Below, piece by piece: positions 4,229 to 29,456 of a DNA stretch of 64,000 nucleotides; position 1 is the stretch's first letter; every line of letters begins with the position of its first letter. The position numbers and the translations under genes are program-made. Where the stretch lies: sequence record MT129654.1; one strand, 5' to 3'. The notes under the pieces are model-generated. The model was not told the origin of the DNA and ran no database searches. It saw only the letters and a list, made by a program, of their open reading frames with translations. Source of the DNA: Escherichia phage MN04.

Positions 4229-5127
<899 letters not shown>

Positions 5128-7323: not shown

Positions 7324-7397
7324 GGCCCTGTAGCTGGACGGTCAAGCGAGCGACTCATAATCGCTGGATGGTGGTTCGATTCCACCCAGGGCCACCA
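7324..7397 (+). tRNA. tRNA with anticodon CAU (Met, or Ile2 if lysidine-modified), CCA encoded
   Basis: Acceptor stem GGCCCTG/CAGGGCC, anticodon stem AGCGA/TCGCT with loop CTCATAA, T-arm GGTGG-TTCGATT-CCACC. Confidence 0.8.
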
Positions 7398-7401
7398 ATT
7401 T

Positions 7402-7476
7402 GGATGTGTAGCTCAGTGGTAGAGCAGTTGACTGTTAATCAATTGGTCCATGGTTCGAATCCATGCATGTCCGCCA
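7402..7476 (+). tRNA. tRNA-Asn (anticodon GTT), CCA encoded
   Basis: D-arm GCTCAGTGGTAGAGC, anticodon loop CTGTTAA, T-arm CATGG-TTCGAAT-CCATG, acceptor with two G-U pairs. Confidence 0.75.
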
Positions 7477-7480
7477 AATA

Positions 7481-7556
7481 CGAGGCATAGCTCAGAAGGA
7501 AGAGCAACGGTCTTCTAAACCGTAGGTCGTAGGTTCGATCCCTACTGTCTCGACCA
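7481..7556 (+). tRNA. tRNA-Arg (anticodon TCT), CCA encoded
   Basis: D-arm GCTCAGAAGGAAGAGC, anticodon stem ACGGT/ACCGT with loop CTTCTAA, T-arm GTAGG-TTCGATC-CCTAC; T4 also carries tRNA-Arg(UCU). Confidence 0.75.
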
Positions 7557-11284: not shown

Positions 11285-11624
11285 TCTTGCATCACATGTT
11301 TATCAATTGGCTGAATATAATATTGGTGACAATTTATTATTAGGGATTGCCACCGGTATGCTTGGTGGTTTGGTTGGTCTGGTAATGACCACGGTTATGG
11401 CTGCAATCGAAGGAGTCATGCCCGTTGAGATGGGTTTCTATATGATAATCGCTCCGGCTGTCGTGGCTTATTTTATCCCTCTCGTGTATGATATTTGCCA
11501 TACAAATGCTTTGAATGCTCCCATCCGTAAGAGATATGCTTTAGAGATGGCTAATTATAATGAGTATGTAAAACAAACCAAACGTAATGACCTTGAAACC
11601 TTTATTAAGGAATGTAAATCATGA
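11271..11624 (+). CDS. membrane protein (117 aa)
   Basis: ATG 11271 with SD aagagg; two hydrophobic helices; C-terminal FIKEC motif. Confidence 0.5.
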   Translation: MERPSLASHVYQLAEYNIGDNLLLGIATGMLGGLVGLVMTTVMAAIEGVMPVEMGFYMIIAPAVVAYFIPLVYDICHTNALNAPIRKRYALEMANYNEYVKQTKRNDLETFIKECKS

Positions 11625-11911
11625 ATAAAATTGAAATTGAAATCCCTGAATACAACGACGAGAAATCTGCAGAAAAAGCTATCTATGCTCTTCTGAATAA
11701 AGTAGATACCATCGAACATGAATGTGAAGCTATTGCCGATAAGTACGGTATTCAATTCGGAACAGGTGATTATGGCTCAGGACGTACATACTACCCCGTT
11801 GGTTATGAATGCTCACAGTGGTTTAAAGATGAAATTGAAAACAATGGTGGTGAAGTTGAAAATGGCGTCGTTACAGTTGGTGCCTGGGTCTCCTCTTCAG
11901 CATTATGCTAA
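11621..11911 (+). CDS. small protein, member 1 of a tandem W-x-S-S-x-x-C family (96 aa)
   Basis: ORF ends ...AWVSSSALC; followed by TAAGGA and the next paralog. Confidence 0.55.
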   Translation: MNKIEIEIPEYNDEKSAEKAIYALLNKVDTIEHECEAIADKYGIQFGTGDYGSGRTYYPVGYECSQWFKDEIENNGGEVENGVVTVGAWVSSSALC

Positions 11912-11920
11912 GGAAACGCT

Positions 11921-12202
11921 ATGATGAATGATAATCATAACCACCCAGAGCTTCTGGCCGCAGTAAAAGAAATTCATGAAGCTATTCGTCGTGCCGAGGA
12001 AATTGCAGACAAATATGAGTCCCATTTTAATATATACCCTGCTCGCGGTATGGGCGGCGACTATTATTCTCCTGGTGCCTTGAAAGCTGACCTTGCCCAT
12101 TGGGAAGAAGATGGTCATCCTGAATGGGCTATTGTTAATACTCATGACTATACAACTGACCTGGAAAATGGTGGTTGGGTGTCCTCTTCTTCTGAATGTT
12201 AA
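11921..12202 (+). CDS. small protein, member 2 of the tandem family (93 aa)
   Basis: Ends ...GWVSSSSEC; SD taaggaa upstream. Confidence 0.55.
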   Translation: MMNDNHNHPELLAAVKEIHEAIRRAEEIADKYESHFNIYPARGMGGDYYSPGALKADLAHWEEDGHPEWAIVNTHDYTTDLENGGWVSSSSEC

Positions 12203-12211
12203 GGAAATATT

Positions 12212-12409
12212 ATGTCTCGTGAATTAGATTGTGCAATCCGAACTGCCGCCGCAGCTATTGAAAACGTTATCCAGATTTGTAAAGAAGAACGCGAAGAAGC
12301 TGATATCTATATCGATGGTGTTCGTGACTTAGAACGACATATCACGCTTTATAATGGTTGTATTACTATTAGTGGTACCTCTTGGGTATCATCCTCTTAC
12401 GAATGCTAA
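12212..12409 (+). CDS. small protein, member 3 of the tandem family (65 aa)
   Basis: Ends ...SWVSSSYEC. Confidence 0.55.
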   Translation: MSRELDCAIRTAAAAIENVIQICKEEREEADIYIDGVRDLERHITLYNGCITISGTSWVSSSYEC

Positions 12410-12418
12410 GGTAATAAA

Positions 12419-12631
12419 ATGACTATTGATGAAATCGAAAAACAAATCCGTGAATTAGTACGTAAAGGCCAGTCCGTGGCTGACGAAACAGGTGAAGAGT
12501 TCCATGTTTCCGGACGTGGACAATACATTTCTCCAAAGAATCCGGAATATGATGATTACGAATGGGTCCGTGACGATTACGGTATCCCAGATGGTGAAGG
12601 TTTCTGGTTTACATCCTCTATGTCTTGCTAA
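12419..12631 (+). CDS. small protein, member 4 of the tandem family (70 aa)
   Basis: Ends ...FWFTSSMSC. Confidence 0.55.
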   Translation: MTIDEIEKQIRELVRKGQSVADETGEEFHVSGRGQYISPKNPEYDDYEWVRDDYGIPDGEGFWFTSSMSC

Positions 12632-12642
12632 GGAATAAAAAA

Positions 12643-12867
12643 ATGACCGATATTGATGAATTAGAAAAAGCTGCCCTTGAACTGGCTGCCCTGTATAAGA
12701 AAGTAAAAGATATGGCTTCTGCTCAGGATTTTGGTGTTGAGCTAGATGATTATGACGGTGAAGTTCGTCTTGAAGATTGGCTGAATAGTTCTTGTTATGG
12801 TGAAGAAGCTGGTCGTACCTTCGTTGCTCGTCCCGATGGTAAAATCTGGTACCCGAGCTCATGCTAA
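12643..12867 (+). CDS. small protein, member 5 of the tandem family (74 aa)
   Basis: Ends ...KIWYPSSC; ATG 12643 after SD taaggaa. Confidence 0.5.
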   Translation: MTDIDELEKAALELAALYKKVKDMASAQDFGVELDDYDGEVRLEDWLNSSCYGEEAGRTFVARPDGKIWYPSSC

Positions 12868-13088
12868 AATTAAAGAAAAGATATATTCGTAAAATAAACG
12901 GTCTTCGTGATTATGCCAAAGGTTGGCCGTTAAGTATTATTATGGCCGATAGACACCCACGTTATAATACTGAGATGACTTATTACAAAAAGTATGATTC
13001 ATATTGTCGGTCTAAAGCTGGTCGTTTAGATGGTTCTTATGAAGAATATTTTGGCAAAAAACCTACTCGTATTTCGTTAGGAAAATAA
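12861..13088 (+). CDS. hypothetical basic protein (75 aa)
   Basis: ORF overlapping upstream stop by 7 nt. Confidence 0.35.
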   Translation: MLKLKKRYIRKINGLRDYAKGWPLSIIMADRHPRYNTEMTYYKKYDSYCRSKAGRLDGSYEEYFGKKPTRISLGK

Positions 13089-13118
13089 TTTAACCACAAG
13101 GATGTGGTAGGAGGACTT

Positions 13119-13448
13119 ATGCACAAAGATTCAGTATTCAAATACCTTTTGAAAACAGATAAAGAATTCTATATGAATGGACAAGCTTTCTTGTTCATTC
13201 GTGGTAAACGTGAGATGTTTTATAAATGCGACCTCTCAATGCATCATCATATGTATCATACTCATGGTGAGCCTATACTAGGGTTTTCTGGTGACGAGAC
13301 TAGACGCATAGCTATGTACTACGACCATTTTAAGCTCAATGATTGTGGTGACAACGCTTTGGTCTGGAACCCGTCTTGGCGTCGTTGGGATACAGTAGAC
13401 AACGATAAATTATTTTTAGAATATTGCAGAAGTGATGTACAACTCTAA
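13119..13448 (+). CDS. hypothetical His-rich protein (109 aa)
   Basis: ATG 13119 with SD gtaggagga; HHHMYHTHGE stretch. Confidence 0.5.
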   Translation: MHKDSVFKYLLKTDKEFYMNGQAFLFIRGKREMFYKCDLSMHHHMYHTHGEPILGFSGDETRRIAMYYDHFKLNDCGDNALVWNPSWRRWDTVDNDKLFLEYCRSDVQL

Positions 13449-24290: not shown

Positions 24291-24294
24291 TCAA

Positions 24295-24321
24295 AGGTCT
24301 CACTTCGGTGGGACCTTTTTT
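24295..24321 (+). terminator. rho-independent terminator
   Basis: Hairpin ggtctcac-ttcg-gtgggacc followed by TTTTTT. Confidence 0.7.
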
Positions 24322-24330
24322 CGTTTTAGT

Positions 24331-24375
24331 GTTTACATCCTCTAGGAACGTGATACTATAGACCTATCAACTAAT
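24331..24375 (+). promoter_or_regulatory. T4-type early promoter cassette
   Basis: GTTTAC 24331-24336 and core gatactatagacctatcaa. Confidence 0.6.
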
Positions 24376-24387
24376 GAGGAGAACAGT

Positions 24388-24624
24388 ATGAAACTTACAA
24401 GTACTACGGTTTCATTGGAATATGAAATCAATAACCGCCTCCTTGAGATTAAGATATTCGACGACCGAAGTATCTTTGCTGACTACCGAGGGTACAGAAT
24501 TCGTCTAGAAAAGGACGAGCTCAAGGAACCATGGCTCCTTAAAGACACATTAAAGGGTTGTGGGTGTAAGCTGAAGACCACTCAAGCCCAAGAATTAATT
24601 TCTACTATCAACAAATACTGGTGA
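24388..24624 (+). CDS. hypothetical protein (78 aa)
   Basis: ORF with SD gaggag. Confidence 0.5.
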   Translation: MKLTSTTVSLEYEINNRLLEIKIFDDRSIFADYRGYRIRLEKDELKEPWLLKDTLKGCGCKLKTTQAQELISTINKYW

Positions 24625-24628
24625 TATT

Positions 24629-24811
24629 ATGTTAACTACCGAACAGATTGAGAAAATTATCAAACTCGCCCAGCATATTGAAAACGCATCCAATGACCTA
24701 GCTGTTGAATATTGCGAAGGTTATTCATATTCCGGAATAGAGCAGTGTAAACGAGATTTGGCTAACTCTAAAGCAGCCTTGGCTGAGTATCTTAATGAGT
24801 TGAAAGCATAA
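24629..24811 (+). CDS. hypothetical protein (60 aa)
   Basis: Short coupled ORF. Confidence 0.4.
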   Translation: MLTTEQIEKIIKLAQHIENASNDLAVEYCEGYSYSGIEQCKRDLANSKAALAEYLNELKA

Positions 24812-25068
24812 TGGCCGTTGGATTTGCTAAGGACGGAGCCGAACAGCTCGAAATGGAAGCGGTCGTTCAGGCCGCTATAGTACACGCCCGTAAGCAAGTA
24901 GCAGTTGAACGTGAATCGGCTAAATATTGTTTTGATTGCGATGAAGAGATTCCTGAAGCACGACGTCAAGCTATCAAAGGTGTGATATATTGTATAGGTT
25001 GTCAGTCAATGCATGATGAAATTTTTAAACGTGAGCCACGTAACTGTTGGCACAGGAGCATGAGATGA
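24811..25068 (+). CDS. TraR/DksA-family C4 zinc-finger protein (85 aa)
   Basis: CFDCDEEIPEARRQAIKGVIYCIGCQ gives the CxxC-x17-CxxC signature. Confidence 0.65.
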   Translation: MAVGFAKDGAEQLEMEAVVQAAIVHARKQVAVERESAKYCFDCDEEIPEARRQAIKGVIYCIGCQSMHDEIFKREPRNCWHRSMR

Positions 25069-25159
25069 TTTACTATCTTGAACCTTGGGCTTGGCTTACA
25101 ATGCTTATTGGTCCAGTTTTAATAGGTTTATTCTTTTCATGGCTAGCGAGGAAACTGTA

Positions 25160-25357
25160 ATGTTATACGACCCAAGTGGTAATTCTGAAGACGGTATTAT
25201 TGTCCTTTTGGCAGATGTTGAAGAGTCTGACGATGACATTTTTGTTAAAGATTGGGAAGAAAAAGGCGGAATCACAATCCAGCAAGAAAATGATATGATT
25301 TGTCTGAATGCAAGCCAAGTCGAAGAACTTTATAGTATTTTAAAACATAACCGTTGA
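25160..25357 (+). CDS. hypothetical acidic protein (65 aa)
   Basis: ATG 25160 with SD gaggaaa. Confidence 0.45.
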   Translation: MLYDPSGNSEDGIIVLLADVEESDDDIFVKDWEEKGGITIQQENDMICLNASQVEELYSILKHNR

Positions 25358-25367
25358 GGAACAGAAA

Positions 25368-25928
25368 ATGATTATTGAAACAACTGAATTGTTTGGTGAA
25401 CTGACCGCTGAAGTAGTTGATAATGCAATTGTGCTTTCACAAGAAGACGATAAAATCGTACTAACTATCCAAGATATTAAACCACTTTATGATTTAAAGG
25501 TTTTGGATAAAGATGGGTATCTTGATGGACGCCATAGAGCATCGTTTGATATTAACGACGATGTATGGGCCCAGATTTATAAAAATGAAGACGGGTTTAA
25601 TATCGAAACTGATACGGAATGTCTAAGCATTAGGAATTCTAGTAATTTCTTTAAATGTATTTTTAAACTGTTCCAGGAAGAATGCAAGCCTGAAGTTGAA
25701 TGGAAAGTTCCAGGTCAAGATGCGGTGATTCGTTCTAGTGAAACATTCGAAGGTGATGAAGAAGAACTGGATTATGATACCGAATTATCCGTGTATCAAC
25801 ACCAGGGTCGTGATTTGCTATCCTTGACCCAAAGACACGACGGTGAAAATGAAGTGGTATTTACTAAAGACGAGCTAAAAGTTTTAGTCTCTTATCTGAA
25901 CTCTGTTATCCCAACTATGAACCCTTAA
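25368..25928 (+). CDS. hypothetical acidic protein (186 aa)
   Basis: ORF with SD gaggaa. Confidence 0.5.
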   Translation: MIIETTELFGELTAEVVDNAIVLSQEDDKIVLTIQDIKPLYDLKVLDKDGYLDGRHRASFDINDDVWAQIYKNEDGFNIETDTECLSIRNSSNFFKCIFKLFQEECKPEVEWKVPGQDAVIRSSETFEGDEEELDYDTELSVYQHQGRDLLSLTQRHDGENEVVFTKDELKVLVSYLNSVIPTMNP

Positions 25929-25938
25929 GGAAAATATT

Positions 25939-26391
25939 ATGATTATCAATTCAAACTCTTGGCACGTTAAATTACACGACCGTTTTTATGACCGTCATTC
26001 TCGACCGCACTCTTTGTGTGCTTATTTCTGGAAAATGGTTTGGGCTTGTTTTGCTTGTGCCATTGTTGCAGGTAGTACGCTTTTTGGATTAACTGTTGCA
26101 GGCGCTGGTGTATTAGAGCATTTCTTTGTATTAAGTACTCCCGTTCTGTTGAGTCTAGGGTTTGTTTTAGGGTTGATTGCAATAGCTCTTATTATTGCTC
26201 TATCCATTGGTTTGGCATTAGGTGCGATGAATTTACACGCGTGGTATGATGCACGTAGAGAAGAAAAGGAATGGCAACGTATTCAAGCTGAGCGTGAAGG
26301 CCGAGAAACTAAAGAAAATATCGTCGTCCAATACATTAAAGCTCGTAAATCTAAGATGTGTCCTGTAATCCACTTCGAGAACAAAGAATGA
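25939..26391 (+). CDS. membrane protein (150 aa)
   Basis: Conserved initiation region; multiple hydrophobic helices. Confidence 0.5.
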   Translation: MIINSNSWHVKLHDRFYDRHSRPHSLCAYFWKMVWACFACAIVAGSTLFGLTVAGAGVLEHFFVLSTPVLLSLGFVLGLIAIALIIALSIGLALGAMNLHAWYDARREEKEWQRIQAEREGRETKENIVVQYIKARKSKMCPVIHFENKE

Positions 26392-27398
26392 GAACTGTTA
26401 TGAAAGGCTACTTCGGTAGCCACCTTTATGGAACAAGTACTCCGGAATCTGATGTCGATTTTAAAGAAATCTTTGTTCCACATCCGCGTGATATTCTGTT
26501 AGGTACGGCTATGAACCATACCAACCTGAACACGAATAACACTGCTTCCAAAAACACTAAAGATGATGTTGACCATGAGCTTTATAGTCTGAAATATTTC
26601 TTTAAACTGGCTGCTGAAGGCGAAACCGTTGCTCTGGATATGCTCCACACTCCGCCTGAAATGGTGGTTAAATCTGATTTACCTGATGTATGGAAATTTA
26701 TCCAAGACAACCGTTCTCGGTTCTATACAACCAACATGAAAGCCTATTTAGGGTACGTCCGTAAGCAAGCTTCTAAATATGGTGTTAAGGGTTCTCGACT
26801 GGCTGCTCTGCGTGGTGTACTGGCTATTGTTAACCAGATTCCTGAACAATGGGTCGATTATCAAGAAGACGGTTCGACTAAGCAACGTCGCACTAAGGTA
26901 GAAGATATCAAACATCGACTCCCTGAAAATGAGTTCTGTGAATGGGTATTCCATAACCATGAGAAAACAGGACCTCAAACGTTCTATACTGTTCTCGGAC
27001 GTAAGTACCAAACCACTTTGTCATTAATCGAGCTCAAGCAATCTCTGAATAAGCTCGATGCGGAATATGGTGAACGCGCTCGTAAAGCTGAAGCTAACGA
27101 AGGTATTGACTGGAAAGCTCTGAGCCATGCTTATCGTGCTGGTTATCAGTTGAAGGAAATCTATCAAACTGGTGACCTCCAATATCCTTTACGTACAGCA
27201 CCGTTTATCCTTGAAATCAAACAAGGGCTTCATGCTTTTAAAGATGTACAGGCCGAACTTGAAGCTATCGTTGATGAAGTCGAAACCAATGCTATCTGGG
27301 CCGCTAAGAACGGCATGCCTGAGAAGGTAGACATGAAGTTCTGGGACAAGTTCGTTGAAGAGGTGTACCTTGACAACCACAACGCTTATTACCGCTAA
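26388..27398 (+). CDS. Pol-beta-superfamily nucleotidyltransferase (336 aa)
   Basis: N-terminal GSHLYGTSTPESDVD fits the GS-x9-13-Dh[DE] NTase signature; ATGA coupling. Confidence 0.6.
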   Translation: MRTVMKGYFGSHLYGTSTPESDVDFKEIFVPHPRDILLGTAMNHTNLNTNNTASKNTKDDVDHELYSLKYFFKLAAEGETVALDMLHTPPEMVVKSDLPDVWKFIQDNRSRFYTTNMKAYLGYVRKQASKYGVKGSRLAALRGVLAIVNQIPEQWVDYQEDGSTKQRRTKVEDIKHRLPENEFCEWVFHNHEKTGPQTFYTVLGRKYQTTLSLIELKQSLNKLDAEYGERARKAEANEGIDWKALSHAYRAGYQLKEIYQTGDLQYPLRTAPFILEIKQGLHAFKDVQAELEAIVDEVETNAIWAAKNGMPEKVDMKFWDKFVEEVYLDNHNAYYR

Positions 27399-27594
27399 AG
27401 AAGAAATTAACGTCTTTCTATCGTATGGAAGACCTCATAAAACTCGACGTTGGTATCTTGAAGCTGTCTGTAAAGAAACCGGACGTCGAGTCAATGTCAA
27501 ATACGTATGTAAACCGTCTCCCAAACAAACTCGCAGGTTTGTTAACTGGGCTATCAATACTATAAGATTCCATAATTTTTGGAGTGCAATATAA
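27355..27594 (+). CDS. uncertain small ORF (79 aa, non-ATG start in track)
   Basis: ORF track only; overlaps NTase 3' end; no convincing RBS. Confidence 0.25.
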   Translation: MKRCTLTTTTLITAKEEINVFLSYGRPHKTRRWYLEAVCKETGRRVNVKYVCKPSPKQTRRFVNWAINTIRFHNFWSAI

Positions 27595-27616
27595 GGGCCG
27601 TATGGCCCTTTTTTTG
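27594..27616 (+). terminator. rho-independent terminator at a convergent gene junction
   Basis: Hairpin gggcc-gtat-ggccc followed by TTTTTTT. Confidence 0.7.
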
Positions 27617-27617
27617 T

Positions 27618-28373
27618 TTACGAAGTCACTGTTTGTTCGGCTACTAACAATGCAGAGGTTATTGTAAAGTTGCCGCCATTTGGCGTAACAGTTATAGCTG
27701 TACCATTGGTTGCCATTGGCCCATCTTTATCAATGCTAAAGAACGTCGTAAAAGACAAAATATCTGTAGCATTTTCTGGACGGTTCTGTATATAGGAGTT
27801 TCCGTTGGTTCCAACGAAATTTAATGTTATACTTCGAGCTTGCGAGACTCCTGTAAAATTACCAATAAGGTTGAGTTTAAACATTAGGCTTCTGTCTTGC
27901 TTATATGGCCACATCTTATCATCAGCGGTTCTAAAAAACGGAGATAGAGTCCCTGCTGTCGGCGGAATCCCCTTTAAAATACTAATTATGTTTGAAGCCG
28001 CACCATTAGTTAATAGAACGTTTATACCACTCCAAAACACTTCTGATTTTCTTCTCTTTCCTGCTGTTGCAGTCAAAAAATCATCTACTGTTCCACTATT
28101 ACCCTCATCAATCCATAATTGGTATGAAGACTTTCCTGGTTCACCTTGAACTCCCGGGTCGCCAGGATTTCCCGGGTCACCTTTATCACCTTTTTGTCCA
28201 GGAGGTCCTGGAATCTGGGTAACTGATTTTGACATCGTTTGAAAGAACCGTTCGCTGTTATCAGTTACGGTATTAGGAAGGACTACCGTTGAACCAAAAA
28301 GATGCCAGTTATCGTCTAATGCTAACTGGACCTTCTCGTTCAATTCATCGATGGTTTTTGCTGATAAAATCAT
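27618..28373 (-). CDS. collagen-like repeat protein, probable late structural or fibre-like protein (251 aa)
   Basis: Eight G-X-Y triplets PGPPGQKGDKGDPGNPGDPGVQGEPG then a Asn/Thr/Gly-rich C-terminal domain; strong SD AAGGAG and late promoter on the minus strand. Confidence 0.65.
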   Translation of the reverse strand: MILSAKTIDELNEKVQLALDDNWHLFGSTVVLPNTVTDNSERFFQTMSKSVTQIPGPPGQKGDKGDPGNPGDPGVQGEPGKSSYQLWIDEGNSGTVDDFLTATAGKRRKSEVFWSGINVLLTNGAASNIISILKGIPPTAGTLSPFFRTADDKMWPYKQDRSLMFKLNLIGNFTGVSQARSITLNFVGTNGNSYIQNRPENATDILSFTTFFSIDKDGPMATNGTAITVTPNGGNFTITSALLVAEQTVTS

Positions 28374-28409: not shown

Positions 28410-28450
28410 GTTTACACTTTCGTAGAGCATGTTATTATGGACCTATCAAA
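28410..28450 (+). promoter_or_regulatory. T4-type early promoter cassette
   Basis: GTTTAC 28410-28415, -10 TATTAT 28433-28438, then ggacctatcaaa. Confidence 0.55.
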
Positions 28451-28475
28451 TCTACTGAGTGAAACGGAGAATATA

Positions 28476-29456
28476 ATGTTAACTATCAAAATCAACAAAG
28501 GTATCTATCGCGGTAATGAAATCTCTGGTACGTTCATGAGTTCAGGTAAAACCTGGTTCCCTAATAAAATTCATGAATCCGAAGCTCATCTCGGTGATGG
28601 CAAGGTATTTGTACAGATTGATGGTGTTGAACGTGGTGTATGGGTGTTCAAATGTGACGTTGAAATGGAAGGTGTTGAAGCTCCTGCAATGGTTACTGAA
28701 TCCGCTGAAGAAATGAAACATCGCATCAACAAACGTTTTAAAGTAATGAACATGATGACTAACGGAATCATTGATGGTAAAATTCGTTCCCTTATCATCT
28801 CTGGTGCCGCAGGTATCGGTAAAACGTATTCTTTGGATAAAGCATTACAAAATGCCCACGAAAATGAAACTATCGAATATAAATCAATCAACGGAAAGAT
28901 TAGTGGAATCGGTCTTTACGAGCAGCTTTGGAATAACCGCGGCCCTAATAGTGTTCTTCTTATTGATGATGTTGATGTATTCTCTGACATGGATATCCTG
29001 AACCTTCTTAAAGCTGCATTGGATACCGGTGAGAAACGTAAGGTGTGCTGGAGCACTTCAAGTTCTTATCTCGATGATAAAAATATCGATAAAGAATTCG
29101 AATACGAAGGCACCATCGTGTTCATCACCAACGTTGATATTGATCGTGAATTAGAGCGTGGAACTAAACTTGCTCCACACCTCCAAGCTTTAGTATCTCG
29201 TTCAGTTTACTTAGACCTCGGAGTTCACTCGAATGAAGAGATTATGGTTCGTGTTGAAGACGTTATCCTGTCCACCGATATGATGCAAAACCGAGGTCTG
29301 ACTGATGCTGAGACTTATCAAGCTCTAGCATGGATGAAGGCCAATGTATCTCGTCTTCGTAACGTATCATTACGTACAGCTCTTTATCTGGCGGACTTCA
29401 TTGCCACCGATAAAAATGACTGGAGCGAAATCGCCGAAGTTACACTTCTGAAATAA
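28476..29456 (+). CDS. AAA+/P-loop ATPase (326 aa)
   Basis: Walker A GAAGIGKTYS and Walker B LLIDDVD; ATG 28476 with SD ggag. Confidence 0.6.
   Translation: MLTIKINKGIYRGNEISGTFMSSGKTWFPNKIHESEAHLGDGKVFVQIDGVERGVWVFKCDVEMEGVEAPAMVTESAEEMKHRINKRFKVMNMMTNGIIDGKIRSLIISGAAGIGKTYSLDKALQNAHENETIEYKSINGKISGIGLYEQLWNNRGPNSVLLIDDVDVFSDMDILNLLKAALDTGEKRKVCWSTSSSYLDDKNIDKEFEYEGTIVFITNVDIDRELERGTKLAPHLQALVSRSVYLDLGVHSNEEIMVRVEDVILSTDMMQNRGLTDAETYQALAWMKANVSRLRNVSLRTALYLADFIATDKNDWSEIAEVTLLK

What the first reader, a model, noticed from the sequence alone, without database searches (positions are those of the whole stretch)
26388..27398. Pol-beta-type nucleotidyltransferase of unknown substrate
The N-terminus GSHLYGTSTPESDVD is a textbook GS-x(n)-[DE]h[DE] motif of the Pol-beta nucleotidyltransferase superfamily, which includes CD-NTases, polyA/CCA-adding enzymes, aminoglycoside NTases and minimal NTase toxins. 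The 336-aa protein has a large C-terminal extension and is coupled to an upstream membrane protein. A phage NTase in an early operon could modify host RNA or protein, produce or mimic a signalling nucleotide, or repair tRNA.
Basis: partly seen in the sequence, partly recalled or inferred. Interest (0 to 1): 0.55.

Follow-up and report, generated by a model that had tools for sequence, protein, structure and literature searches.

The report
T4 NrdC.11-type RNA nucleotidyltransferase gene

Summary
The ORF is real: 26388-27398 (+), 336 aa, with the GS...DVD motif as described. It is the ortholog of phage T4 nrdC.11 (82% identity). The window is a T-even-type (Tevenvirinae) early region.

The protein passes Pfam's threshold for PF10127 (RlaP, RNA-ligase-associated Pol-beta NTase) and matches phrog_388 "nucleotidyltransferase". 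G10, S21, D22 and D24 are invariant across 149 diverse homologs, and D62 is nearly so. The C-terminal motif DWKAxSHAxR is also conserved.

The AF2 model (pLDDT 93) shows an NTase core plus a HEPN/KNTase-C-like helical domain. A variable beta insert (residues 154-208) lies between the two.

A December 2025 preprint showed that bacterial RlaP enzymes add 1-2 NMP to RNA 3'-OH ends. It names T4 NrdC.11 as an RlaP of unknown function.

Distant members of this subfamily lie in operons with Rnl1 RNA ligase, polynucleotide kinase-phosphatase and Thg1. Others lie between two RNA ligase genes or inside a tRNA gene array.

The best reading is an RNA 3'-end nucleotide-adding enzyme that supports phage tRNA repair. 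The CD-NTase, CCA-adding and antitoxin readings find no support. The overlap with the upstream membrane gene is local synteny only.

This is an ordinary, already annotated family. Its in vivo role in T-even phages is still untested.

The parts
26388..27398 (+). CDS of the 336-aa NrdC.11-type (RlaP-family) nucleotidyltransferase
   Evidence: ORF and translation. 82% identical to T4 NrdC.11. PF10127 E = 5e-11. phrog_388 E = 1e-133. AF2 pLDDT 93.3.
26415..26459 (+). G10-S11 ... D22-x-D24: the nucleotide-binding and metal-binding motif of the Pol-beta NTase core
   Evidence: Coordinates checked. G10, S21, D22 and D24 are invariant and S11 is >= 90% conserved in 149 homologs. These residues align to GS...D49xD51 of canonical RlaP in hhalign.
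26553..26573 (+). N56-T-K-D-D60-V-D62: conserved strand carrying the presumed third catalytic carboxylate (D62)
   Evidence: N56 and D62 are invariant in 55 sequences and >= 90% conserved in 149. The strand is E61-67 in the model. D62 aligns with the invariant D88 of canonical RlaP.
26733..26846 (+). Residues 116-153: conserved, strongly basic helical hairpin (YxGYxRxQAxKYGxKGSR), a candidate RNA-binding surface
   Evidence: pI 10.4, with 7 K+R against 1 D+E. Y123, Q127, K130, Y131, G135 and R137 are conserved. The segment forms helices 118-130 and 136-149. The RNA-binding role is inferred.
26847..27011 (+). Residues 154-208: variable beta-sheet insert not seen in canonical RlaP
   Evidence: Strands 154-208 in the model. 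Lowest conservation and most gaps in the alignment: mean top-residue frequency 0.27 and gap fraction 0.22. The canonical RlaP model has no such insert.
27012..27395 (+). Residues 209-336: C-terminal helical (HEPN/KNTase-C-like) domain with the motif D241-W-K-A-x-S-H247-A-x-R250
25939..26391 (+). Upstream 150-aa membrane-protein ORF whose stop overlaps the NTase start (ATGA)
   Evidence: phrog_944 membrane protein. Hydropathy profile. It directly abuts the NTase only in the closest relatives.
24332..24359 (+). T4-early-type promoter-like site (GTTTACA ... TG-n-TACTAT) that probably drives the operon 24388-27594
   Evidence: Pattern scan and sequence. It lies directly after the hairpin terminator at 24293-24318. 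This is a consensus match only and is not tested.
27593..27610 (.). GC-rich hairpin followed by a T-run, between the NTase operon and the convergent late gene; a probable terminator

Best explanation
The gene encodes the T4 NrdC.11-type branch of the RlaP (PF10127) nucleotidyltransferases.

Proposed mechanism:
- The protein is made early in infection.
- D22, D24 and D62 hold two divalent metals. These are probably Mn2+, as in bacterial RlaP.
- The enzyme transfers one or a few NMPs from NTPs to the 3'-OH of a broken RNA.

Its most likely biological job is as a third step in phage tRNA repair. Host anticodon nucleases such as RloC cut a tRNA and also remove a nucleotide. The phage Pnkp then heals the ends to 3'-OH and 5'-phosphate. 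The NTase restores the missing nucleotide(s). Rnl1, which needs exactly 3'-OH plus 5'-phosphate, reseals the loop.

Shown: the ORF, family membership of the NTase core, conservation of the catalytic residues, the fold, and the genomic linkage of distant subfamily members to Rnl1, Pnkp, Thg1 and tRNA genes.

Inferred: the RNA substrate (by analogy to Pseudomonas RlaP), the number of nucleotides added, the metal, and the link to RloC-type damage.
For: 1. Orthology. The protein is 82% identical to T4 NrdC.11 over all 336 residues. Synteny with the mobD.1 - nrdC.11 - nrdC.10 region of T-even phages is conserved.

2. Family. PF10127 RlaP scores 43.1 bits against a cut-off of 23. phrog_388 'nucleotidyltransferase' scores E = 1.4e-133.

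3. Active site. The catalytic residues are invariant or nearly so in 149 homologs. D22, D24 and D62 align with D49, D51 and D88 of canonical RlaP.

4. Biochemistry of relatives. Pseudomonas RlaP adds 1-2 NMP to RNA 3'-OH and prefers the 5' half of a cleaved tRNA. It did not label E. coli genomic or synthetic DNA or total E. coli protein, and it prefers Mn2+ over Mg2+. Its product is compatible with 5'-phosphate RNA ligases. The same preprint places T4 NrdC.11 in PF10127 cluster 5.

5. Gene neighbourhoods of distant members of this same subfamily (30-45% identity):
- L006: Pnkp ... Thg1 - Rnl1 ... NTase on one strand.
- L007: Rnl1 - kinase/phosphoesterase - NTase - phosphoesterase in direct succession, next to a Ro60/TROVE gene.
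- phiN3: the NTase lies between two RNA ligase genes.
- Ruegeria phage V10: the NTase lies inside an array of 25 annotated tRNA genes.
- L093: a CCA-adding enzyme lies 4.7 kb away.
- 10 of the 27 divergent IMG/VR loci carry Rnl1, Pnkp, Thg1 or a phosphoesterase within 10 kb.

6. Partner enzymes in this lineage. The close relative VR7 (97.6% identical NTase) encodes pseT and rnlA.

7. Published predictions for phages. Iyer et al. 2021 (PMC7824862) state that RlaP distribution mirrors that of RNA ligases in jumbo phages, and that RlaP is predicted to restore nucleotides lost to RloC-type nucleases.
Against: - No enzyme of the NrdC.11-type branch has been assayed.
- Only the N-terminal NTase core is alignable to canonical RlaP. 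Pfam matches residues 8-134 only. hhalign covers 91 columns with E = 6e-4 and probability 28%. Substrate choice, which the C-terminal domain probably sets, therefore need not be the same.
- In T-even phages the gene is about 80 kb from pseT and rnlA. No repair gene lies within the window or within 10 kb in any T-even-like locus.
- Several distant homologs have uninformative neighbourhoods.
- The linkage statistics have no proper background control.
- nrdC.11 can be deleted from T4 without loss of viability in the laboratory (PMC9825161). No phenotype is on record.
- The solved PfRlaP structure was not in the PDB copy, so no direct structural comparison was possible.
Confidence: 0.55

Rival explanations
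1. It is an RNA 3'-tailing enzyme whose role is not repair. It would add short untemplated tails to host or phage transcripts or tRNAs early in infection. This could mark them for decay, block their use, or protect them.
For: The catalytic core and the family biochemistry (RNA 3'-OH acceptor, little NTP specificity) fit this equally well. The gene is unlinked to pseT and rnlA in T-even genomes. It sits among early host-takeover genes.
Against: Distant subfamily members are repeatedly linked to RNA ligase, end-healing enzymes, Thg1 and tRNA arrays. That points to restoring RNA rather than marking it. Bacterial RlaP stops after 1-2 nucleotides.
Confidence: 0.15
2. It nucleotidylylates a protein or small molecule, as AMPylases or antibiotic NTases do (GlnE, DrrA, MntA, KNTase, ANT). 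For example, it could modify a host factor or defence effector.
Against: All these similarities have 7-14% identity and reflect the shared NTase + helical-domain architecture. The sequence-level matches fail: NCBIfam MntA scores 13 bits against a cut-off of 60, and NTP_transf_2 is below threshold. Bacterial RlaP did not label E. coli proteins. The neighbourhood evidence points to RNA.
Confidence: 0.1
3. It synthesises a free oligonucleotide or nucleotide signal. One version would make a HalB-like oligodeoxyadenylate that keeps a Hailong-type effector switched off. Another would make a cyclic nucleotide mimic. Either would act as an anti-defence decoy.
Against: Identity to HalB is 13%. There is no sequence-level match. 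PADLOC has no hit, though its 2023 release may predate Hailong. There is no resemblance to CD-NTases or cGAS in any search. The RNA-repair neighbourhoods are not explained by this reading.
Confidence: 0.05
4. It is a non-catalytic or decaying remnant kept only by synteny.
For: The gene is dispensable in T4 in the laboratory.
Against: The gene is full-length in 1443 of 1549 phage records. The catalytic residues are invariant across 149 diverse sequences. The fold prediction is confident.
Confidence: 0.02

Closest known systems
Phage T4 NrdC.11 (NP_049709.1; T4p095)
   Same: Ortholog: 82% identity over all 336 residues with no gaps. It occupies the same position between the mobD.1-type gene and nrdC.10, in the early region between tk/rI and nrdC. 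It carries the same motifs.
   Different: In T4 the homing endonuclease gene mobD lies directly upstream. Here a 150-aa membrane-protein ORF takes that place. Here a late gene on the opposite strand is inserted between the NTase and nrdC.10.
Canonical bacterial RlaP (PF10127; Pseudomonas PfRlaP/PaRlaP, in rtcB-rlaP-rtcA operons)
   Same: Same Pfam family by the NTase core. The GS...DxD...D residues are aligned. Both have an NTase domain followed by a HEPN-like helical domain ending in a long C-terminal helix (and the description). The solved structural neighbours overlap: 3c18, KNTase, HalB, HEPN domains, DrrA. Both show genomic linkage to RNA ligases.
   Different: Canonical RlaP is about 268 aa and matches the whole Pfam model (positions 2-249, E = 4e-68). 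The phage type matches positions 25-142 only. It lacks the N-terminal helix, has a 55-residue beta insert, and has different C-terminal signature residues: DWKAxSHAxR against KxYxYxxR. Its partner ligases are Rnl1-type (5'-phosphate ligases) rather than RtcB. The two types can occur side by side in one locus (L008), so they are probably not redundant.
Hailong HalB (PDB 9dbh)
   Different: Identity is 13% and rmsd 4.3 A. HalB has 217 residues against 336 here. There is no sequence-level relationship and no HalA-type partner. HalB belongs to a host defence system, not a phage.
Kanamycin/lincosamide/streptomycin nucleotidyltransferases (ANT(4'), LinB, AadA)
   Different: Identity is about 10%. 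There is no sequence-level membership. The biological context and conserved residues are different.

Membership tests
Pol-beta nucleotidyltransferase superfamily | G[SG] motif, [DE]x[DE] on the next strand, and a third carboxylate on a later strand | tested here: met
   G10-S11, D22-x-D24 and D62 are present. They are invariant or >= 90% conserved in 149 homologs.
Pol-beta nucleotidyltransferase superfamily | Alpha/beta NTase fold | tested here: met
RlaP (Pfam PF10127) | Match to the family profile above the curated threshold | tested here: met
   43.1 bits against a cut-off of 23, E = 5.2e-11. Only residues 8-134 match, on model positions 25-142 of 249. Precomputed PF10127 assignment is present on all close homologs.
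RlaP (Pfam PF10127) | Homology over the C-terminal helical domain as in characterised PfRlaP | tested here: inconclusive
   hhalign of the two subfamily profiles aligns only 91 N-terminal columns (E = 6e-4, probability 28%). Both models have a helical C-domain, and their HEPN/KNTase neighbours overlap. The PfRlaP crystal structure was not available.
RlaP (Pfam PF10127) | Gene linked to RNA ligase or RNA end-healing genes | tested here: inconclusive
   Not met in this window or in any T-even-like locus within 10 kb. pseT and rnlA are about 87 kb away in VR7. Met in distant members of the same subfamily.
RlaP (Pfam PF10127) | Adds 1-2 NMP to the 3'-OH of RNA; Mn2+ preferred | not testable with these tools
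   Shown only for two Pseudomonas enzymes.
CD-NTase / cGAS-like signalling cyclases | Profile membership and the cGAS/DncV-like fold | tested here: not met
CCA-adding enzymes / poly(A) polymerases (PF01743 and class I) | Profile membership; head-neck-body-tail architecture | tested here: not met
   No match in Pfam. Only a marginal Cid1 hit in Foldseek (E = 0.65, TM 0.11).
MntA/MNT minimal NTase antitoxins | Profile membership; about 100-140 aa; paired HEPN toxin gene | tested here: not met
   NCBIfam MntA scores 13.1 bits against a cut-off of 60, over residues 8-25 only. The protein is 336 aa. No separate HEPN gene lies adjacent.
Aminoglycoside/lincosamide NTases (KNTase-like) | Sequence-level membership; antibiotic-binding C-domain | tested here: not met
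Hailong HalB | Sequence or fold similarity plus a partner HalA effector | tested here: not met

The most novel reading that the evidence does not exclude
The NrdC.11-type branch, which shares only the catalytic core with assayed RlaP enzymes and whose nearest solved structure is Hailong HalB, may not be a repair enzyme at all. It could make short primer-independent oligo(deoxy)nucleotides that act as a decoy, keeping nucleotide-gated host effectors such as HalA switched off during infection.

A less radical version is that it is the missing third enzyme of the classic T4 tRNA repair pathway and specifically defeats nucleotide-excising anticodon nucleases such as RloC. I put that version at about 0.35.
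Probability: 0.05. Interest if true: 0.8.

Novelty: already known. Interest (0 to 1): 0.3.

Why it matters
T4 Pnkp and Rnl1 are the founding example of RNA repair as a viral counter-defence. RloC-type nucleases were proposed in 2008 to defeat that repair by excising the wobble nucleotide (PMC2610378, title and abstract).

If NrdC.11 restores such nucleotides, T-even phages would carry a complete heal - fill - seal pathway. That would answer an old question about whether phages can counter RloC.

The gene is present in over 1500 sequenced phages, so a defined activity would improve many annotations. The idea has already been published as a prediction, and the family is already annotated. The value here lies in a directly testable hypothesis, not in a discovery.

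Tried and rejected
- Sequence search of the PDB found nothing meaningful. This held for the protein alone, for the subfamily profile and for the canonical RlaP profile. The PfRlaP crystal structure described in the preprint is not in the copy, so no direct structural comparison was possible.
- The afdb50 fold library was not available.
I rebuilt the alignments.
- PADLOC gave no hit for the NTase, the canonical RlaP or the membrane protein.
- I considered a functional pair of membrane protein + NTase and rejected it. Adjacency is limited to close relatives and is lost in T4.
- I considered coupling to NrdC.10, the P-loop ATPase. It is a conserved neighbour in 36 of 80 loci, all T-even-like. Here it has its own promoter and is separated from the NTase by a terminator and a convergent late gene. 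I treat it as synteny.
- Four extra look-ups of distant homologs returned contigs too short to inform.
- The Burroughs & Aravind 2016 paper that named RlaP is not held in the library. I cite it only through the papers that quote it.
- The Rfam scan of the window found only the three tRNAs.

Full report
**Observation**

Window 26388-27398 (+) is an uninterrupted 336-codon ORF beginning MRTVMKGYFGSHLYGTSTPESDVDFKEI. Its ATG overlaps the TGA of the upstream 150-aa ORF (25939-26391) in the sequence ATGA. The motif residues are G10-S11 (nt 26415-26420), D22-V-D24 (26451-26459) and D60-V-D62 (26565-26573).

**Where the window comes from**

The region is 93.5% identical in DNA to Escherichia phage C6 (Dhakavirus, Tevenvirinae) and matches 380 T-even-type phage records. 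The protein is 99% identical to that of phage KIT01 and 97.6% identical to NrdC.11 of phage VR7. It is 82% identical, without gaps, to T4 NrdC.11, which RefSeq annotates as 'nucleotidyltransferase'.

Gene order matches the T-even early region: tk - rI - mobD.x - mobD.1 - (membrane ORF) - nrdC.11 - nrdC.10 ... nrdC.

A T4-early-type promoter-like site (GTTTACA ... TACTAT, 24332-24359) follows a hairpin terminator. A second hairpin with a T-run at 27593-27610 closes the unit. These are consensus matches only.

**Family**

- Pfam places the protein in PF10127 (RlaP) with 43.1 bits against a cut-off of 23. The match covers only residues 8-134, on model positions 25-142 of 249.
- PHROGs gives phrog_388 'nucleotidyltransferase' at E = 1.4e-133.
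- NCBIfam gives only sub-threshold noise, including MntA at 13 bits against a cut-off of 60.
- PADLOC gives nothing.
- An exhaustive HMMER search of 1.84 billion cluster representatives finds 3216 clusters at E <= 1e-3 and 802 at E <= 1e-30. Nearly all of those listed are 300-360 aa and match end to end.

In an alignment of 149 sequences down to 34% identity:
- Invariant: G10, S21, D22, D24, Y131, H247, R250, P267.
- At least 90% conserved: S11, N56, D60, D62, K130, R137, R230, K243, K278 and others.

**Structure**

AlphaFold2 with that alignment gives pLDDT 93.3 and pTM 0.81. The model has four parts:
- An NTase core (residues 1 to about 115).
- A conserved, very basic helical hairpin (116-153, pI 10.4).
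- A poorly conserved beta insert (154-208).
- A helical C-terminal domain (209-336) carrying DWKAxSHAxR.

No CD-NTase or CCA-adding enzyme appears.

**Relation to assayed RlaP enzymes**

A canonical 268-aa RlaP matches the whole Pfam model (E = 4e-68). I collected its relatives, aligned them and compared the two profiles. hhalign aligns only the first 91 columns (E = 6e-4, probability 28%). Within these, D22, D24 and D62 pair with the invariant D49, D51 and D88 of canonical RlaP.

The canonical model (pLDDT 95.8) has the same order of elements in the core and a helical C-domain that ends in a long helix. It differs in having an extra N-terminal helix and no beta insert.

The NrdC.11 type is thus a distinct branch that shares the catalytic core, and probably the overall architecture, with canonical RlaP. 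This agrees with the preprint's similarity network, which places T4 NrdC.11 in a separate cluster 5.

**What is known**

- nrdC.11 orthologs were matched to the COG3541 NTase domain in 2006 (PMC1524935).
- The family was named RlaP because of its linkage to RNA ligase genes, and was predicted to restore nucleotides removed by nucleases such as RloC before ligation. I cite this as quoted in PMC7824862 and in the preprint. The original paper was not available.
- In December 2025 Carruthers, Fatma and Huang showed that two Pseudomonas RlaP enzymes add one or two NMPs (or dNMPs) to the 3'-OH of RNA. They did not label E. coli genomic or synthetic DNA or total E. coli protein. They prefer Mn2+ and the 5' half of a nicked tRNA. 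They partly rescue aminoacylation of a tRNA that lacks one anticodon-loop nucleotide.
- The same authors note that the product suits 5'-phosphate ligases better than RtcB, and they call T4 NrdC.11 an RlaP of unknown function.
- nrdC.11 is deletable in T4 (PMC9825161). A reduced T4 clone retains only its last 39 codons.
- I found no paper that assays the phage enzyme.

**Neighbourhood evidence gathered here**

Within T-even-like loci no RNA repair gene lies within 10 kb. In VR7, pseT and rnlA are about 87 kb away. Distant members of the same subfamily tell a different story:

| Locus | Context |
|---|---|
| L006 | Pnkp, Thg1, Rnl1 and the NTase on one strand within 7 kb |
| L007 | Rnl1 - kinase/phosphoesterase - NTase - phosphoesterase in direct succession, near a TROVE (Ro60-like) gene |
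| Sinorhizobium phage phiN3 | The gene (annotated NrdC.11) lies between two RNA ligase genes |
| Ruegeria phage V10 | The only large CDS inside an array of 25 annotated tRNA genes |
| L093 | A CCA-adding enzyme lies 4.7 kb away |

Ten of the 27 divergent IMG/VR loci have Rnl1, Pnkp, Thg1 or a related phosphoesterase within 10 kb. Other loci are uninformative. I have no proper background model for these counts. The direct operon cases carry the weight.

**Mechanism proposed**

The protein is an early-expressed NTase. D22, D24 and D62 bind the metals and the NTP. [quoted passage not shown]

In T-even infection the chemically coherent pathway has three steps:
1. Pnkp produces 3'-OH and 5'-phosphate ends.
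2. NrdC.11 fills in the missing nucleotide(s).
3. Rnl1 seals the loop.

This would counter nucleases that both cut and trim tRNA. Everything beyond family membership, conserved residues, fold and gene linkage is inference. I put it at 0.55.

The rivals are RNA tailing unrelated to repair (0.15), protein or small-molecule nucleotidylylation (0.10), a HalB-like oligonucleotide decoy (0.05) and a non-catalytic remnant (0.02).

**The membrane protein**

The upstream ORF is hydrophobic and belongs to phrog_944. It abuts the NTase only in the nearest relatives. In many T-even-like loci it lies 0.5-2 kb upstream. In T4 the homing endonuclease mobD takes its place. It is absent from more distant phages. 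It is translationally coupled here, but it is not a conserved partner.

**Verdict**

The gene is an ordinary, widely conserved and already annotated member of a described family. Its branch has not been assayed, and a published, directly testable hypothesis links it to T4 tRNA repair. Novelty: already known. Interest: 0.3.

Noticed in passing
window 27618-28373 (-): A 251-aa gene on the opposite strand inside the early region. It has collagen-like Gly-X-Y repeats plus an Sf6-type tail-needle-knob domain (PF16532, E = 5e-32). It has its own T4 late-promoter motif TATAAATA and an AAGGAG ribosome-binding site. It converges on the NTase operon at the hairpin 27593-27610. Only 4 of 80 related loci carry a homolog nearby, and T4 and VR7 lack it there. 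It looks like a mobile late/virion gene.
   Followed up: partly
window 27355-27594 (+): A 79-aa basic ORF that overlaps the last 44 nt of the NTase gene in another frame and ends just before the terminator hairpin. Similar ORFs occur in 14 of 80 related loci, and VR7 annotates one as ORF100c. Phage C6 instead annotates a 46-aa ORF in a different frame (= window 27425-27565). Which one is real is unresolved.
   Followed up: partly
window 28437-29456 (+): The NrdC.10 ortholog. It is a P-loop ATPase with weak AAA/STAND-NTPase matches and a weak C-terminal HTH match. It has its own promoter-like site at 28411-28438. It neighbours the NTase in 36 of 80 loci, all T-even-like. Its function is unknown.
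   Followed up: partly
window 25368-25928 (+): The MobD.1 ortholog matches the Pfam families T4_y05I_N and T4_y05I_C (putative transcription factor domains), at E = 4e-40 and 4e-20.
   Followed up: no
window 7324-7556 (+): A cluster of three tRNA genes: Met-CAT, Asn-GTT and Arg-TCT. These are the only Rfam matches in the window.
   Followed up: no
L008 2872-5907 and L009 830-2628: On a contig with conjugation genes (TraV, TrbI), a Fic-domain gene is followed by an NrdC.11-type NTase and then, overlapping it, a canonical full-length RlaP. The two RlaP branches therefore co-occur as a pair and are probably not redundant.
   Followed up: partly
L093 6001-7978 and L094 556-2533: In a metagenomic phage-like contig, the NTase is followed after 4 nt by a gene with an AcrVA2-like domain (PF26125). 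A CCA-adding enzyme (PolyA_pol + HD) lies 4.7 kb downstream.
   Followed up: no
L102 (Ruegeria phage vB_RpoS-V10) 6989-8002: The NTase homolog, annotated as a hypothetical protein, is the one large CDS embedded in an array of 25 annotated tRNA genes.
   Followed up: no
L004 (T4) 11436-13209; L002 (T4 clone T4_7t1) 4773-5120: In T4 the HNH homing endonuclease gene mobD overlaps the start of nrdC.11, at the position where this window has the membrane ORF. In the genome-reduced T4 clone, only NrdC.11 residues 298-336 survive, inside the CDS annotated MobD.1.
   Followed up: partly
public annotations of homologs: Many database entries for this protein are mislabelled 'thioredoxin', presumably carried over from the nrdC gene name. 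One is labelled 'putative HNH homing endonuclease' and one 'ArsR family regulator'.
   Followed up: no
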